Shown piece by piece: positions 30,444-37,561 of a DNA stretch of 37,561 nt. This DNA is from an uncultured Nitrospirota bacterium. Its GTDB lineage: Bacteria; Nitrospirota; Nitrospiria; SBBL01; SBBT01. Every line of letters begins with the position of its first letter. Within the stretch, counting starts at the first letter, position 1. A model generated the notes under the pieces. That model had not been told where the DNA came from. It saw nothing but the letters and a program-made list of their open reading frames with translations, and ran no database searches. The stretch spans positions 1 through 37,561 of the forward strand of contig CAYRGU010000045.1 in the NCBI GenBank assembly GCA_964423845.1, read 5' to 3'. A program made the position numbers and the translations under genes.

Positions 30444-33400
30444 GTGAAACTCGAAGACCTCCAACCCGACGCCACCGTGCGCGGCATCCTTCCCGATGCA
30501 CTGGTCACGGTTGTCTCCGTCGCGTGGCACGGTGCCGATGCGCTGACCCTCGTGCATCGCTACCCCAATGGCCGCGTGGCGGACGAGATCCTCTACCGGC
30601 ACGACGAGCCGCGCCTCGCGATCGTCGAAGCCGGGAGACCTTGGAGCTTTGATGGCGACGGCGCGCTCTTCCGTCTCGTCTCGGAAGCGCACCGCATCCG
30701 GCTTGCGCACCTGTTCGATCCCGTATTGGCGGTTCACACCTCGCTCGTCGAGCCGCTGCCGCACCAGATCACGGCTGTCTACGAGGAGATGCTCCCGCGT
30801 CAGCCGCTGCGCTTCCTGCTCGCCGATGATCCTGGGGCGGGCAAGACGATCATGGCCGGCCTCCTCATTAAGGAGCTGATCGCTCGCGGCGACCTGAAGC
30901 GTTGCCTGATCGTCTGCCCCAGCAGTCTCGCCGAGCAGTGGCAGGACGAGCTTGGCCGGCGCTTCCATTTGCCGTTCGAGATCCTCACCAACGACAAGAT
31001 CGAGTCCGCACGCACTGGCAACTGGTTTCTCGAGAACGATCTCGCCATCGCGCGCCTCGACAAACTGTCGCGCAACGAGGACGTGCAGCAGAAGCTCAGC
31101 GCCCCGGACTGCCGCTACGACCTCATCGTTTGCGACGAGGCGCACAAGTTATCCGCCACCTTCTTCGGCGGTGAGGTGAAGTACACCAAGCGCTATCGGC
31201 TCGGCCAACTCCTCTCGGGCCTCACGCGCCACTTCCTGCTGATGACGGCCACGCCGCACAACGGCAAGGAAGAGGACTTTCAGCTCTTCCTTGCGCTGCT
31301 CGACGGCGACCGCTTCGAGGGAAAGTTCCGAGACGGCGTCCACCAGGTCGAGGTCTCCGACCTGATGCGTCGCATGGTAAAGGAGAACCTGCTCAAGTTC
31401 GACGGTCGGCCGCTGTTCCCCGAGCGCATCGCCTACACGGTTCCCTACAAACTTTCGGACGCTGAAGCGCGGCTCTACAAGGATGTCACCGAGTACGTGC
31501 GCGAGGAGTTCAACCGCGCCGAGGCGCTCCAGAACGACAAGCGCGCGGGCACGGTTGGCTTCGCGCTCACCATCCTGCAGCGGCGCCTGGCCTCGTCGCC
31601 GGAGGCGATCTACCAGTCGCTACGCCGCCGGCGCGAGCGGCTGGAGAAGCGGTTGCGCGAGATGGAGCTCCTGCAGCGCGGTGCCGTCGCCGCAGCCGTT
31701 GAGGTGCCGTCCTTCGACGCAGAGGATCTGGAGGATCTCGACGAAGCCCCGGAGAACGAGGTCGAGACCGCCGAGAAAGAGGTCCTCGATCAGGCCACAG
31801 CGGCAGCGACGGTCACCGAGCTGAAGATCGAGATCGCCACGCTCGCCCGCCTCGAAGCCCTCGCCGCCGAGGTCCGTCGCAGTGGGAAGGACACCAAGTG
31901 GCGCGAACTCGCGCACCTGCTGGGCGAGATCTTCACGCCGACGGCGCTGGGTGGCCGGGTCGCTAAGCCCACCGTGCCCTACGGCACCGGTCAGATTCCG
32001 AAGCCCGTCCCTTCACCGCGTCAGAAGCTCGTCATCTTCACCGAGCATCGCGACACGCTCACCTACCTCGATCGCCAGATCGGCTCGCTGCTCGGTCGCC
32101 CGCAAGCGGTCGTCCTGATCCACGGCGGCATGGGGCGCGAGGAACGGCGCAAGGCGCAGGCGAGCTTCCTGCACGACCCGGAGGTGCAGGTACTGCTCGC
32201 GACCGACGCCGCCGGCGAAGGCATAAATCTCCAAAGGGCGCACCTGATGGTGAATTACGACCTACCCTGGAACCCGAACCGCCTGGAGCAGCGCTTTGGC
32301 CGCATCCACCGCATCGGCCAGACCGAGGTCTGCCACCTCTGGAACCTGGTGGCCGAAGAAACGCGCGAGGGCGACGTCTACCGCCGTCTGCTCGAAAAAC
32401 TTGAGGAAGCGAGACAGGCTCTGGGCGGGCAGGTGTTCGACGTGCTCGGCAAGCTCCAGTTCGACGGCCGCCCACTGCGCGACCTGCTGATCGAGGCGAT
32501 TCGCTACGGCGACCAGCCCGAGGTCCGCGCCCGCCTGACCCGCGCCATCGAGCACGGGGTGGACCGGCCGCACCTCGAAGGACTCATCGAAGAACGTGCG
32601 CTGGCCCACGACGTGATGGACTCAAGTCGCGTGGCACGCATCCGCGAAGAAATGGAGCGCGCCGAAGCGCGCCGCTTGCAGCCGCACTACATCGAGTCGT
32701 TCTTCCTTGAAGCCTTTAAGAGGCTGGGCGGCACAGTCCGCCAGCGCGAGCCTCGCCGCTACGAGGTCACCCACGTGCCGGCGACGGTGCGCAACCGCGA
32801 CCGCCAGATCGGCGCGGGCGATCCGGTACTCCCGCGCTACGAGCGCATTGCCTTCGAGAAGGAGTTGATCGCGCCGCAGGGTCAGTCGCTCGCGGCCTTC
32901 GTCTGCCCTGGCCACCCGCTGCTCGACGCCGCCCTCGACCTCACGCTCGAGCGCCACCGCGATCTGCTCAAGCGCGGCACGGTGCTGGTGGACGAACGCG
33001 ACCCCAGCAGGAACCCCCGTGTGCTCTTCACCCTCGAACACGCCATTCAGGACGCGAGCCTCCTGCCTTCGGGCGATCGCCGCACCATCTCGCGGCGCAT
33101 GCTCTACGTCGAGATGGACGACCCAGGGCACACCCGCCATCTGCAATACGCGCCCTACCTCGACTACCGGCCGCTTGCCGATAATGAGCCTTCCGTTGCC
33201 GACCTGCTCTCCCGGCCCGAGTGCGCCTGGATCACGCGAGCCCTAGAGCAAAAGGCGCAGAGTCATGCCATCGCGCAGGTCGTGCCCGACCACATCGCCG
33301 AGGTGCGCGGCCGACGCCTCACGTGGATTGAGAAGACCCGCGCCGCGGTGAAGGATCGTCTCACCAAGGAGATCACCTACTGGGACCACCGCGCCGAGCA

Positions 33401-35652: not shown

Positions 35653-37561
35653 ATGACCAGGACGCATAAGAAACTCATCGAAGTCGCCCTGCCGCTCGAC
35701 GCCATCAACACGGCCTCGGCGCGGGAAAAATCCATCCGGCACGGCCACCCGAGCACGCTGCACCTGTGGTGGGCGCGGCGGCCGCTGGCGGCGGCGCGGG
35801 CGGTGATCTTCGCGCAGATGGTGGACGACCCGTCGGCGCACCCGGACCTGTTCAAGACCGAGCAGGCGCAAGAGAAGGAGCGGCTGCGGCTGTTCAAGAT
35901 CATCGAGGACCTGGTGCTGTGGGAGAACACCACGAACGAGACGGTCTTGCAGGCGGCGCGCGACGAGATCTGGGCAAGCTGGCGGCGCGCCTGCGCCGAG
36001 AACGCCGACCATCCGCGGGCGAAGGATCTGTTCGACCGCAACAAGCTCCCCGCCTTCCACGATCCCTTCGCCGGCGGCGGCGCGCTGCCGCTGGAGGCGC
36101 AGAGGCTGGGGCTGGAGAGCTACGCCAGCGACCTGAACCCGGTAGCGGTGCTCATCAACAAGGCGATGATCGAGATCCCGCCGAAGTTCGCGGGCAAACC
36201 GCCGGTCAATCCGAAAGCAAGGGGAAACATGGGCCACTCGGGGAGCTGGCACGGAGCACAGGGATTGGCCGAGGACGTGCGCTACTACGGCCAGTGGATG
36301 CGCGACGAGGCCGAGAAGCGCATCGGCCACCTCTACCCGAAGGTCGAGGTCACCGCCGAGATGGTGAAGGCGCGGCCGGACCTGAAGCAGTACGCGGGCC
36401 GGAAGCTCACCGTGATCGCCTGGCTCTGGGCACGCACGGTGAAGAGCCCGAACCCGGCCTTTGCCCAGGTGGACGTGCCGCTCGCCTCGACCTTCATGCT
36501 CTCCACCAAGCCGGGGAAGGAAGCGTACGTCGAGCCGGTGATCCTGGGAGCGCCGGCGTCCCCGCCGGCAGGGAAAGAACAAGCCGCCGGGACGGCGGCG
36601 GTCCCAGGCTACCGCTTCACGGTGAAGATGGGGAAGCCGAAGGATGCGGAGGGGGCGAAGAACGGCACCAAGCTGTCGCGCGGGGCGAACTTCCGTTGTG
36701 TGATGTCGGGCACACCGATCGCTACCAACTACATCAGGGCTGAAGCACAAGCCGGACGCATGGCTGTGCGGTTGATGGCTGTCGTAGCAGAGGGCGAGCG
36801 TGGGCGCGTGTACGTGACGCCGCAGTCGGAAATGGAATCTGTCGCCCGATCAGCCTCGCCAGCATGGAAGCCCGATCTCAAGGTGCCCACGCCGTGTCAC
36901 GACGTTGACCGACTTCCGATGTACGGCATGCCGACGTGGGGTGACGCTTTCACCCCCCGCCAGCTCGTGGCGCTGACGACCTTCTCCGACCTGGTGCAGG
37001 AAGCGCGCGAGCGGGTGCAGCGCGACGCCCTCGCCGCCGCCCTCCCCGACGACCCCAAGCCCCTGCGCGACGGCGGCACCGGCGCCACCGCCTACGCCGA
37101 GGCGGTGGGGGTGTACTTGGCTTTTGCGTTGAGCAAGCAGGCGGACCTCGGCAACAGCCTTTGCCGATGGGAGCCGATCGCCCAGTGCCCTCGACAGCTT
37201 TTCGGTCGCCAGGCGATCCCGATGATCTGGGACTACGCCGAGGGCAACCCGCTCGGCGACAGTTCGGGCGCATGGGTAGTTTTCGTGGACGGCATCGTCA
37301 AGGCGTTCACGAAGGCGTTCGAAACCGTGAAGGCGACCGCTGTGGGTCACGCTGAACAAGCCGATGCAGGAATGCAGAGCGTCGCTCTCGGGAAAGTCGT
37401 CTCCACCGACCCGCCGTATTACGACAACATCGGCTACGCCGACCTGTCGGACTTCTTCTACGTCTGGCTACGCCGCTCGTTGCGACCCGTCTTTCCCGAC
37501 CTCTTCGCCACACTTGCGGTGCCCAAGGCGGAAGAGCTGGTCGCCACGCCCTACCGCCACG
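35653..37561 (+). CDS. DUF1156-type (COG1743-like) DNA amino-methyltransferase; the 3' end is truncated by the window edge (636 codons visible)
   Basis: Absent from the ORF track because there is no in-window stop. I translated it by hand from ATG 35653 (RBS AAGGAAGGA at 35641-35649): [51 protein letters not shown]... The HLWWARRP signature is at 35761-35784. SAM motif I DPFAGGG is at 36061-36081. Catalytic motif IV DPPY is at 37408-37419. The frame stays open to 37561. Confidence 0.9.

What the first reader, a model, noticed from the sequence alone, without database searches (positions are those of the whole stretch)
30444..37561. Candidate R-M-like / anti-phage module: SNF2-DEAH helicase-nuclease, DUF4062-COG2865-wHTH protein and DUF1156 methyltransferase
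Seen: three co-directional genes in the foreign block. The first two are translationally coupled (ATGA at 34019-34022). The third follows a 74-bp repeat-filled spacer. Established: a DNA methyltransferase next to a helicase-nuclease is the logic of self/non-self discriminating defence (type I/III R-M, BREX, DISARM). From memory, unverified here: DUF1156 methyltransferases recur with SNF2-like helicases and DUF499 ATPases in predicted defence loci from comparative-genomic surveys, sometimes labelled Hma (helicase-methylase-ATPase), with little or no mechanistic characterisation. Inference: this is such a locus, but with an extra DUF4062-COG2865-wHTH gene wedged between helicase and methylase. 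I do not recall that gene as part of the core set. The expected ATPase may lie beyond the window edge. This is the strongest candidate for an under-described system in the window.
Basis: partly seen in the sequence, partly recalled or inferred. Interest (0 to 1): 0.85.

Follow-up and report, generated by a model that had tools for sequence, protein, structure and literature searches.

The report
Hma defence operon with embedded NADase
This is a known type of restriction-like anti-phage operon (Hma) carrying an uncharacterised inserted gene that most likely kills infected cells by destroying NAD+, and whose DNA-binding tail matches a triple repeat placed exactly at the end of its own gene.

Summary
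Three co-directional genes lie at 30444-37561, with an ATGA overlap at 34019-34022 and a repeat-filled spacer.

Genes 1 and 3 are HmaA and HmaB of the known Hma system, also called the type-1 DUF499-centred BREX-related system. The contig ends inside hmaB. HmaC follows hmaB in relatives.

The middle gene X is not a core Hma gene. It sits between hmaA and hmaB in only 1 of 61 related Hma loci. About half of the 80 X homologue loci examined lie in Hma operons, and others lie in type I or type III R-M operons, in both bacteria and archaea.

X has three parts:
- a DUF4062/NIR TIR-like NADase domain with its catalytic Glu intact;
- a GHKL ATPase domain;
- a winged helix-turn-helix (wHTH).

X resembles the known Schlafen-GHKL-wHTH "backup effector", with the RNase swapped for an NADase.

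New here: a 43-nt element (AATCnnnnnGAT, repeated at +11 and +21/22) starts at X's stop codon in essentially all loci. Its variable pentamer tracks the wHTH recognition helix, and the two swap together as a module.

Overall this is a known system carrying a new variant of an embedded effector, plus an undescribed cis element.

The parts
30349..30443 (.). Left boundary of the high-G+C block, between the SecA-like gene (27712..30348) and hmaA
   Evidence: G+C goes from 0.49-0.53 to 0.61-0.67. The SecA C-terminal [13 protein letters not shown] motif is read. No tRNA lies at the edge and no sigma-70 consensus promoter is found on the + strand.
30444..34022 (+). hmaA: SNF2/DEAH helicase fused to a C-terminal NOV_C (DUF3883) PD-(D/E)xK nuclease
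   Evidence: PADLOC HmaA 1690 bits, residues 1-1190 on profile positions 2-1171 of 1176. Pfam domains. GAGKT at 131, DEAH at 231, and D1098...E1116-V-K1118. The DISARM DrmD model scores below its NCBIfam cut-off.
34019..34022 (+). ATGA start/stop overlap that couples hmaA and gene X
   Evidence: Sequence read. Adjoining tblastn coordinates, consistent with the same overlap, are seen in at least 15 related loci.
34019..35578 (+). Gene X (519 aa): NIR/DUF4062 TIR-like NADase (aa 1-155), GHKL ATPase region (aa about 170-423, HATPase_c_4 at 333-421) and wHTH (aa about 445-510)
   Evidence: Pfam. PDB KpSwz DUF4062, E 8.7e-7, with X E87 aligned to the position I infer to be the mutated catalytic Glu. 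F8, H85 and E87 are invariant and Y88 is at least 90% conserved among 54 homologues. Residues 170-423 align to canonical Schlafen-GHKL-HTH paralogues after their AlbA_2 domain. The AlphaFold2 model is confident for the N-terminal domain and the wHTH only.
35550..35592 (+). Repeat unit 1 (degenerate): AATCGACCGgg / AAaCGACCGAC / 10 nt / AATCGcCCGAT. It overlaps the last codons and the stop codon of X.
35597..35639 (+). Repeat unit 2: AATCGACCGAT / AATCGACCGAC / 10 nt / AATCGACCGAC. It ends 13 nt before the hmaB start codon.
   Evidence: The same 11 + 21/22 layout was picked up by the scans in 74 of the 80 related loci, and degenerate copies were read by eye in five of the six the scans missed; the sixth (L077) has no sequence downstream of X.
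35653..37561 (+). hmaB, first 636 codons: DUF1156 N-terminal domain plus a gamma-class N6-adenine methyltransferase. It is cut off by the end of the contig.
   Evidence: PADLOC HmaB 1015 bits. Pfam DUF1156, E 3e-32. Motif I DPFAGGG at 136-142 and motif IV DPPY at 586.

Best explanation
The block is a horizontally acquired Hma operon (hmaA-hmaB-[hmaC]), also called a type-1 DUF499-centred BREX-related, restriction-modification-like system.

Inferred from the family: HmaB marks host DNA at N6-adenine. HmaA, an SNF2 motor fused to a PD-(D/E)xK nickase, attacks invading DNA together with the DUF499 ATPase HmaC.

Gene X is inserted at the known hmaA|hmaB hotspot. It is a self-contained one-gene second-line module, not an Hma subunit. 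Its parts and their proposed roles are:
- N-terminal NIR/DUF4062 TIR-like domain. Inferred to hydrolyse NAD+ and cause abortive infection.
- GHKL ATPase region. Inferred to act as a nucleotide-driven oligomerisation switch, by analogy with Schlafen-GHKL proteins.
- C-terminal wHTH. Shown in silico to be matched to a triple direct repeat (AATCnnnnnGAT, spacing 11 and 21/22 nt) that starts at X's own stop codon.

I infer that three head-to-tail X protomers sit on one face of this DNA. Being bound to this self site would control whether the NADase domains can assemble. The direction of control (tethered = off, or scaffolded = on) and the phage signal are unknown.
For: Hma identity:
- PADLOC HmaA 1690 bits and HmaB 1015 bits.
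- Catalytic motifs are intact.
- The gene order hmaA-X-hmaB-hmaC occurs in many relatives, for example L013, L047, L048, L052, L056 and L086.

X is accessory and autonomous:
- It is present in 1 of 61 HmaB-centred loci.
- Of 80 X-centred loci, about 37 are flanked by hmaA or hmaB. Others lie in type I R-M (L006, L016, L031, L034, L060, L069) or type III R-M (L008, L014, L015, L058) operons.
- Homologues are 63-81% identical from Deltaproteobacteria to Methanosarcina.

NADase:
- Pfam DUF4062, E 3.6e-17.
- KpSwz structure match. E87-Y88 of X aligns with the position I infer to be the catalytic E97 of KpSwz (E97A in the deposited construct), followed by Phe.
- E87 is invariant and Y88 at least 90% conserved.
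- DUF4062 is a proven NADase effector in three preprints: 10.64898/2026.05.01.722283, 10.64898/2026.09.04.749371 and 10.64898/2026.06.25.731849.

Effector swap:
- Canonical AlbA_2-GHKL-HTH paralogues in the same loci align to X residues 170-423 from their residue about 117 onwards.
- X has no AlbA_2 domain and no Ex4(E/D)xK motif.

Repeat and wHTH match:
- The scans picked up the element in 74 of the 80 related loci. Degenerate copies were read by eye in five of the six missed. The sixth (L077) has no sequence downstream of X.
- A looser scan counted 135 units on the gene strand and 0 on the other strand in about 2 Mb.
- The highest mutual-information columns of the whole protein are 482, 471, 487, 478, 458, 472, 508 and 486. 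Most lie in helices 2 and 3 of the wHTH.
- Each pentamer class has its own recognition helix.
- Residues 1-440 are equally similar within and between classes (0.777 versus 0.764). The wHTH is 0.72 similar within classes and 0.45 between them.
- L008 and L028 are 98% identical over the body but 39% over the wHTH, and they carry different repeats.
- Two out-of-sample checks held. L086 has TTCCG with YDTANRDL. L081, only 45% identical to X, has TACCG with YDTIRRDI.
- A 36% identical homologue has its own triplet, AATTGACAAC.
Against: - No experiment supports any step for this protein.
- The wHTH and the repeat are physically adjacent. Co-inheritance of a swapped 3' block would produce covariation even without binding.
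- A site at the 3' end of a gene is an odd place for a regulator.
- One to two triplets per genome could hold only a few protein molecules.
- All units, including extra non-cognate ones, lie on the transcribed strand. This would also fit an RNA-level role.
- Arrays of up to eight units of different classes occur upstream of hmaB in a locus with no X (L088). The tether model does not predict this.
- The middle of the AlphaFold2 model is poor (pLDDT below 50 for much of 258-440), so the GHKL assignment rests on sequence only.
- HmaC cannot be seen in this contig.
- In Halomonas, HmaB overexpression did not change T4 sensitivity (PMC11232893), so the self/non-self role of HmaB is not established.
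Confidence: 0.6

Rival explanations
1. X is mainly a transcription factor for the host operon, like a C-protein or BrxR. The wHTH binds the repeats just upstream of hmaB to set hmaB-hmaC expression. The DUF4062 domain only senses a nucleotide.
For: - In the window the last repeat ends 13 nt before the hmaB ATG. The distance is 12-30 nt in L022, L017 and L009.
- Adjacent units create a GATAAT hexamer that resembles a -10 box.
- Databases name the family 'predicted HTH transcriptional regulator'.
Against: - The same element follows X in type I and type III R-M contexts, and in archaea, which use different promoters.
- The next long ORF is convergent in at least five loci: L002, L068, L071, L072 and L078.
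- The distance to the next start codon ranges from 12 to more than 400 nt.
- The catalytic Glu and the aromatic pocket residue are invariant. This is not expected of a purely sensory domain.
- 60 of 61 related Hma operons do without X.
- No cognate site lies upstream of hmaA.
Confidence: 0.12
2. The repeats act as RNA. They would be a 3'-UTR array on X's own transcript that binds X protein. This would resemble a type III toxin-antitoxin RNA (ToxI/ToxN) or an autoregulatory site, keeping the NADase silent until transcription or RNA stability is disturbed by infection.
For: - All 135 units lie on the transcribed strand and none on the other.
- The element is part of X's transcript by position, since it overlaps the stop codon.
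- Covariation with the wHTH fits RNA recognition as well as DNA recognition.
- Three units could match a trimeric assembly. This point rests on my knowledge of ToxIN.
Against: - The 11 and 21/22 nt spacing matches one and two turns of B-DNA, which has no meaning for single-stranded RNA.
- The covarying residues lie on helices 2 and 3 of a canonical wHTH (positions 478, 482 and 486 are i, i+4, i+8), as in major-groove readout.
- No Rfam family matches. No conserved hairpin is visible, and the 10-nt spacer is not conserved.
Confidence: 0.15
3. The repeats are cassette-boundary or recombination signals, comparable to integron attC sites. They would mark the 3' end of mobile X cassettes, and arrays of units would be scars of earlier cassettes.
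For: - The element starts at the stop codon, as attC sites do. The attC comparison is my own knowledge.
- Solo units occur without X between hmaA and hmaB in L152, L147, L094 and L088. In L090 a unit sits next to a 46-codon remnant of X.
- Arrays have a regular 65-69 nt period.
- The hotspot holds other debris: hmaB 5' copies and an HmaA C-terminal fragment between cassettes in L022 and L044.
Against: - No recombinase is consistently linked to the element.
- Other cassettes embedded in the same operons lack the element, including canonical Schlafen-GHKL-HTH paralogues and ABC ATPases.
- A general recombination site would not need to track the recognition helix of the adjacent protein across 45% sequence divergence.
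Confidence: 0.08
4. X is an integral fourth subunit of this Hma subtype. It would work physically with HmaA (to which it is translationally coupled) and HmaB, rather than as an independent module.
For: - The ATGA coupling to hmaA appears conserved in at least 15 loci.
- About 37 of the 80 sampled X homologue loci lie in Hma operons, usually directly after hmaA.
Against: - X is present in 1 of 61 related Hma loci.
- X at 70-73% identity sits in type I and type III R-M operons and elsewhere without any hma gene.
- Embedding of unrelated defence genes in Hma is the rule: 62.7% in 10.1101/2024.01.29.577857 and 45 of 61 loci here.
Confidence: 0.05

Closest known systems
Hma system (PADLOC; Payne et al. 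2021, PMC8565338), also called the type-1 DUF499-centred BREX-related system (PMC12839542)
   Same: hmaA and hmaB match the family profiles over their full visible length. They have the same gene order, the same strand and the same helicase-REase fusion. The methylase has the same DUF1156 N6-adenine architecture. An insertion sits at the hmaA|hmaB junction, as in most members.
   Different: hmaC is not visible because the contig ends. The inserted gene is not one of the tested Hma-embedded candidates (HEC-01 to HEC-09), and it matches no PDC model in PADLOC-DB v2.
Schlafen-GHKL(minimal histidine kinase)-wHTH proteins: COG2865, 'Schlatpase' (10.64898/2026.05.29.728809), pSlfn HisKinase-HTH (PMC13056530), and the 'backup effector' of BREX/BR loci (PMC12839542)
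   Same: X has a homologous GHKL region (residues 170-423, 28-32% identity to paralogues in the same loci) and a C-terminal wHTH. It shows the same habit of sitting inside BREX-, Hma- and R-M-type operons. Payne's supplementary tables place it in the same family, FAM_00002, as cluster CLU_00184.
   Different: The AlbA_2/Schlafen RNase domain and its Ex4(E/D)xK motif are absent. A DUF4062/NIR domain takes their place. The six canonical paralogues examined have no triple repeat after their stop codon.
DUF4062/NIR NADase defence proteins: Swarozyc, Evangelion, Vulcan, Vesta and NIR-Avs (2026 preprints)
   Same: X has the N-terminal DUF4062 core with the conserved Phe and the Glu-Tyr catalytic region. 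It has a single-gene effector-plus-sensor layout and is associated with defence loci.
   Different: Similarity to KpSwz stops at about residue 105. None of the three papers mentions a GHKL, HATPase or Hma-embedded form in its main text. Their triggers are phage proteins (portal, lambdap79), a replication-associated process (Evangelion) or, as proposed for Vesta, products of host-genome degradation. A sequence-specific self DNA site is not reported.
PrrC/EcoprrI and other suicide effectors embedded in R-M loci (my own knowledge)
   Same: A latent cell-killing effector is encoded inside a restriction-modification operon as a second line of defence.
   Different: PrrC is an anticodon nuclease held by the R-M complex itself. 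X moves between three kinds of host system almost unchanged, so a specific protein partner is unlikely.
OmpR/PhoB-type wHTH binding to 11-bp-spaced direct repeats, and centromere-binding proteins whose repeat arrays abut their genes (my own knowledge; AspA appears among weak fold matches)
   Same: Direct repeats lie one helical turn apart and would be read head-to-tail by a winged helix. The site lies next to the gene of the protein that reads it.
   Different: X has no receiver domain and no partition ATPase. This is an analogy of DNA recognition only.

Membership tests
Hma / type-1 BR system | HmaA: SNF2-type helicase with a C-terminal REase-like (NOV_C/DUF3883) nuclease | tested here: met
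   PDLC00659 1690 bits, full length. Pfam SNF2-rel_dom, Helicase_C and NOV_C. DEAH and D...EVK motifs present.
Hma / type-1 BR system | HmaB: DUF1156-headed N6-adenine methyltransferase | tested here: met
   PDLC00660 1015 bits over the visible 636 aa. DUF1156, E 3e-32. DPFAGGG and DPPY motifs present. The C-terminal third is missing.
Hma / type-1 BR system | HmaC: DUF499 AAA+ ATPase on the same strand | not testable with these tools
   The contig ends at 37561 and exact-protein look-ups found no longer contig. HmaC (PDLC00662, 1160 bits) follows hmaB in relatives.
Hma / type-1 BR system | Anti-phage activity and hmaB-dependent methylation | not testable with these tools
   This needs cloning, plaque assays and methylome sequencing. 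Published for a Halomonas HmaA only (PMC11232893).
DISARM / BREX / Dpd helicase families | Score above the curated family cut-off | tested here: not met
   NCBIfam DISARM_DrmD scores 359.6 bits against a cut-off of 610. DpdE scores 192.6 against 500. PADLOC DrmD and BrxH scores are 4-5 times lower than the HmaA score.
DUF4062 / NIR NADase domain family | Domain profile match and conserved catalytic Glu in the acidic-aromatic motif | tested here: met
   PF13271 62.8 bits against a cut-off of 24.7. F8 and E87 are invariant and Y88 at least 90% conserved in 54 homologues. E87 aligns to the position I infer to be KpSwz E97.
DUF4062 / NIR NADase domain family | NAD+ hydrolysis and NAD+ depletion on infection | not testable with these tools
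   A biochemical assay is required.
Schlafen-GHKL-wHTH (COG2865 / Schlatpase / pSlfn HisKinase-HTH) | AlbA_2/Schlafen nuclease domain with an Ex4(E/D)xK motif | tested here: not met
   No PF04326 match for residues 150-345 even at E up to 10. No motif found by regular expression. Paralogues in the same loci do have the motif.
Schlafen-GHKL-wHTH (COG2865 / Schlatpase / pSlfn HisKinase-HTH) | GHKL (HATPase_c_4) domain followed by a wHTH | tested here: met
   PF13749, E 3e-22, at residues 333-421. PDB 3lmm match. Weak HTH_DeoR match and a confident wHTH in the model.
Swarozyc / Evangelion / Vulcan / Vesta | Family-specific auxiliary region after the DUF4062 core (portal-binding HTH module, short AUX, HEAT repeats, or a partner phosphatase) | tested here: inconclusive
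   The only solved member (KpSwz) aligns to X residues 3-105 only. X instead has a GHKL region of about 250 aa. Sequences of the other systems were not available for comparison.
Type III toxin-antitoxin (ToxIN-like) | Tandem equal-length repeats transcribed as an antitoxin RNA and processed by the toxin | tested here: not met
   The units are 11 nt with unequal 11 and 21/22 spacing, and they lie downstream of the gene, not upstream. No Rfam match. RNA binding itself was not testable.

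The most novel reading that the evidence does not exclude
X and its triple repeat form a two-part switch in which a short nucleic-acid site encoded at the end of the toxin gene, DNA or possibly its RNA copy, is the specific partner that holds a NADase in check.

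Loss or damage of that site would free the NADase. This could follow phage-induced chromosome breakdown, or loss of the island.

The dozen or so orthogonal wHTH/repeat classes, the module swapping, and the orphan arrays of up to eight different units in X-less loci (L088) would then reflect competition between such elements, with the arrays acting as decoys or anti-addiction devices.

This would be a defence or addiction module with a cis nucleic-acid 'antitoxin' and a readable, re-programmable wHTH recognition code.
Probability: 0.2. Interest if true: 0.85.

Novelty: new variant of a known kind. Interest (0 to 1): 0.6.

Why it matters
The Hma call itself adds little. The system, its insertion hotspot and the idea of embedded backup effectors are all published.

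Two things are new and testable.

First, a very conserved (63-81% identity), cross-domain family joins the recently discovered NIR/DUF4062 NADase to the GHKL-wHTH chassis of bacterial Schlafens. It lives almost only inside methylation-based defence operons. This suggests effector swapping on a common sensor chassis. It also gives a natural pair, RNase versus NADase, for asking what that chassis senses.

Second, the family carries a strictly positioned triple repeat whose sequence class can be read from three or four residues of the wHTH recognition helix, even across 45% sequence divergence. That is a ready-made set of about twelve orthogonal protein-DNA pairs. It also hints that a nucleic-acid site, not a protein, controls an abortive-infection enzyme.

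Tried and rejected
- Extending the contig. Exact look-ups of HmaA and X found nothing. The window's own proteins are on record only from a 37561-bp contig, so HmaC cannot be shown here.
- Naming the host. Cluster look-ups of the SecA-like protein and one other window protein (24575-26218) returned no names.
- Known PADLOC candidate. X hits only weak Argonaute-associated and pAgo models over residues 173-380 and no HEC or PDC model.
- Schlafen domain. Not found.
- Full-length structure. The AlphaFold2 model has mean pLDDT 66 and a poor middle region. The Foldseek PDB search gave no match at E of 0.001 or better. It gave only weak TIR, deoxyribosyltransferase, 3lmm and wHTH (AspA) matches, used as a consistency check only.
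- Sigma-70 promoter or terminator at the repeats. None found on the + strand.
- Known RNA family. None found.
- Repeats as a general mark of Hma-embedded cassettes. Rejected, because other cassettes and canonical paralogues lack them.
- Repeats as an operator for hmaA. Rejected, because no cognate site lies upstream of hmaA.
- Link between repeat class and host system type. None was seen on inspection. Each major class occurs in Hma and in non-Hma contexts.
- Plasmid and phage collections. They hold only distant relatives, below 35% identity, for example Legionella plasmids.

Full report
**Observation**

The window holds three co-directional ORFs at its right end:
- 30444..34022, 1192 aa, GTG start.
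- 34019..35578, 519 aa.
- An ORF starting at ATG 35653 that runs off the end, with 636 aa visible.

The ATGA overlap is at 34019-34022. G+C jumps from about 0.50 to about 0.65 at 30350, right after a SecA-like gene. The 74-bp spacer, together with the last 29 nt of gene 2, holds six + strand copies of AATCGACCG (at most 1 mismatch). Only 13 further matches occur on both strands of the whole window.

**Genes 1 and 3**

PADLOC-DB profiles give HmaA (1690 bits, end to end) and HmaB (1015 bits, profile positions 6-624 of 967). All other helicase families score far lower. The NCBIfam DISARM and Dpd models score below their cut-offs.

The catalytic motifs are intact:
- HmaA: GAGKT, DEAH and D1098...E1116-V-K1118.
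- HmaB: DPFAGGG and DPPY.

Published background on Hma:
- It was defined by Payne et al. 2021 (PMC8565338).
- HmaA of Halomonas defends against T4 through a nickase domain (PMC11232893).
- 62.7% of 1,485 Hma systems carry embedded genes, and several of these are new defences (10.1101/2024.01.29.577857).
- A 2026 survey re-files Hma as a type-1 DUF499-centred BREX-related system (PMC12839542).

HmaC cannot be seen here. The window appears to be the whole contig. In relatives a 1107-aa HmaC (1160 bits) follows hmaB.

**Gene X, domains**

Pfam finds DUF4062 (aa 7-91) and HATPase_c_4 (aa 333-421).

Evidence on the N-terminal domain:
- A profile of 54 homologues hits the solved KpSwz DUF4062 structure at E 8.7e-7.
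- In the pairwise alignment, X E87-Y88 falls on the Ala-Phe at chain positions 84-85. By my count this is the E97A catalytic position of that construct.
- F8, H85 and E87 are invariant and Y88 at least 90% conserved. This matches the F11 and E87-Y88 pocket described for Eva01 (10.64898/2026.06.25.731849).
- DUF4062/NIR is an experimentally shown NAD+ hydrolase effector (10.64898/2026.05.01.722283; 10.64898/2026.09.04.749371).

Residues 150-345 give no AlbA_2 match, and X has no Ex4(E/D)xK motif. Canonical AlbA_2-GHKL-HTH paralogues in the same loci do have that motif. They align to X residues 170-423 only from their residue about 117 onwards. X is therefore the GHKL-wHTH chassis of the 'Schlatpase'/pSlfn-HisKinase-HTH proteins (10.64898/2026.05.29.728809; PMC13056530), with the Schlafen RNase replaced by a NIR NADase.

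The AlphaFold2 model is confident only for the N-terminal domain and the C-terminal wHTH. In the wHTH, helix 1 is 450-462, helix 2 is 467-474, helix 3 is 478-490, and a beta wing follows. Fold matches are weak and used only as a consistency check.

**Gene X, distribution**

More than 1,300 homologues were found, and the best 120 are 72-81% identical. I fetched 80 genome loci that span many bacterial phyla and the archaea Methanosarcina, Methanoculleus and Methanoperedens, at 63-75% identity.
- About 37 have hmaA and/or hmaB beside X. The gene order is often exactly hmaA-X-hmaB-hmaC, with tblastn coordinates that adjoin at the hmaA-X junction, consistent with the same 4-bp overlap.
- Others have X inside type I or type III R-M operons.

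In the reverse survey I took 80 metagenomic loci chosen by HmaB. The hmaA-hmaB junction is visible in 61 of them. In 16 the two genes are adjacent and in 45 there is an insert. Only one (L086) has X. X is therefore a rare, portable accessory of methylation-based defence operons, not a core Hma gene.

Payne's supplementary tables list this architecture as cluster CLU_00184 of the COG2865 family FAM_00002, among genes embedded in BREX, DISARM and R-M systems. The listed multi-gene cassettes that contain FAM_00002 are marked 'Reject'. No PADLOC candidate model matches X. The three DUF4062 papers do not mention a GHKL/HTH form or Hma in their main text.

**The repeat element**

Aligning the 3' flanks shows a 43-nt element: AATCnnnnnGAT, AATCnnnnnGAT, 10 variable nt, then nAATCnnnnnGAT. 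It begins at or within a few nucleotides of X's stop codon, and the stop codon is often part of the first unit, as TGA-ATC or TAA-TC.

How widespread it is:
- The scans picked it up in 74 of the 80 related loci.
- Degenerate copies were read by eye in five of the six the scans missed. The sixth (L077) has no sequence downstream of X.
- It also follows homologues that are 45% and 36% identical to X. The latter uses AATTGACAAC.
- In about 2 Mb of fetched DNA, a looser scan found 135 units on the gene strand and none on the other strand.
- Many loci have a second unit 65-69 nt (sometimes 46-47 nt) downstream of the first. The window has two units 47 nt apart.

**Match between repeat and wHTH**

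The five variable bases fall into about a dozen classes. The protein columns with the most mutual information with the class are 482, 471, 487, 478, 458, 472, 508 and 486. Most lie in helices 2 and 3 of the wHTH.

Each class has its own recognition helix:

| Pentamer class | Recognition helix |
|---|---|
| GACCG (window) | NDTAG |
| ATCCG | RDTAH/Y |
| GTCCG | KDTAH |
| TTCCG | YDTAN |
| TACCG | YDTIR |
| (C/T)ATCG | YNTAY |
| GTCAG | TRDTAxRDF |
| GTAAA | TRPITxKDF |
| GTTAA | TGPTVASDF |

Evidence that the wHTH and the repeat move together as a module:
- Residues 1-440 are equally similar within and between classes (0.777 versus 0.764).
- The wHTH is 0.72 similar within classes and 0.45 between classes.
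- Pairs such as L008 and L028 are 98% identical in the body and 39% identical in the wHTH, with different repeats.
- The nearest neighbour by body sequence shares the class in 27 of 68 cases. By wHTH sequence it does so in 58 of 68.

Two loci not used to derive the table obeyed it, including a 45%-identical homologue. The simplest reading is that the wHTH reads the repeat, and that the two move and diversify as one module. Physical linkage alone could produce some of this signal, so binding remains an inference.

**What the element is not**
- It is not a general feature of embedded cassettes or of canonical Schlafen paralogues.
- It is not an operator for hmaA.
- It is not tied to the downstream gene. 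The next long ORF is convergent in at least five loci, and the distance to the next start codon varies from 12 to more than 400 nt.
- It is found in archaea as well as bacteria, which argues against a promoter-specific role.
- There is no Rfam match and no consensus promoter or terminator on the + strand.

**Mechanism proposed**

Shown by profile and motif analysis: this is an Hma operon, and X is a NIR-GHKL-wHTH protein with catalytic residues intact.

Shown in silico: a cis element is matched to the wHTH.

Inferred:
- X is an autonomous abortive-infection NADase that backs up the restriction-like system.
- The GHKL domain is a nucleotide-dependent oligomerisation switch, as in SLFN-pAgo.
- The 11 and 21/22 spacing puts three head-to-tail protomers on one DNA face, as known for OmpR/PhoB-type winged helices (my own knowledge).
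- Occupancy of this self site governs NADase assembly.

Unknown: the direction of control and the trigger.

**Open problems**

Orphan units occur between hmaA and hmaB in loci without X. Examples are L152, L147, L094, L090 (next to a 46-codon X remnant), and above all L088, which has about eight units of different classes at a period of about 65 nt. They may be scars of cassette turnover in a hotspot that also accumulates hmaB 5' copies and HmaA fragments. Alternatively they may be functional decoys. The strict strand bias keeps an RNA-level role possible.

**Verdict**

The middle gene is a new variant of a known kind of embedded effector. The repeat/wHTH code is, as far as my literature searches reach, undescribed and worth an experiment.

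Noticed in passing
L088:2750-3260: A locus with hmaA, a canonical Schlafen-GHKL-HTH gene and hmaB, but no X. It carries about eight consecutive AATC-type triple-repeat units of different pentamer classes at a period of about 65 nt, directly upstream of hmaB.
   Followed up: partly
L152:5406-5531; L090:1866-2194; L094:540-840; L147:3890-4090: Solo repeat units lie between hmaA and hmaB without an intact X. In L090 a unit lies next to a 46-codon remnant of X's N-terminus. This suggests that X was deleted and its 3' element retained.
   Followed up: partly
L022:11560-15700; L044:1108-1250: Short copies of the hmaB 5' end (GTGAAGAAGAAACTCATCGAAGTCGCC...) follow successive embedded cassettes (three in L022, one in L044). 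L022 also has a 111-aa HmaA C-terminal fragment between cassettes. These look like signs of cassette build-up by recombination at the hmaA|hmaB hotspot.
   Followed up: no
L008 vs L028 (X genes at 10001-11545): The two X proteins are 98% identical over residues 1-440 but only 39% identical over the wHTH. They carry different repeat classes (TTCCG versus GTCAG). This points to a recent swap of the 3' module.
   Followed up: yes
L014 and L015 (contig JBAPQW010000022.1, 43395-64915 and 82574-104094): Two apparently identical copies of a 20-kb region (X plus a type III R-M and flanking genes) lie in opposite orientation on one 147-kb contig. This is either a large inverted duplication or an assembly artefact.
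   Followed up: no
L031, L034, L064, L065, L067, L069, L071: X homologues that are 68-71% identical to the window copy, each with its repeat element, occur in methanogenic and methanotrophic archaea. One is in the complete genome of Methanosarcina hadiensis. That is unusually high cross-domain conservation for a defence gene.
   Followed up: partly
window:35603-35610 and equivalent junctions in most loci: The junction of the first two units (…CGAT|AATC…) forms a GATAAT hexamer that resembles a -10 box. No matching -35 element was found.
   Followed up: partly
window:27712-30348: A SecA-like gene ends 95 bp before hmaA. The G+C step at this point has no tRNA or integrase nearby within the window, so the way the island was inserted is unclear.
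   Followed up: partly
plasmid hits H1-H12 (e.g. NZ_CP082853.1:87842-89029): Legionella plasmids encode proteins annotated as ATP-binding (in some records split into an ATP-binding and a DUF4062 protein) that are 25-29% identical to X. The match covers only residues 1-416, so they may lack the wHTH. I did not check whether they have any repeat element.
   Followed up: no
L082:7650-7710: A 36%-identical homologue has its own AATTGACAAC triplet. About 100 nt downstream it has a second, degenerate unit of the AATCnTCnGAT type. This suggests that orphan units also occur in distant branches of the family.
   Followed up: no
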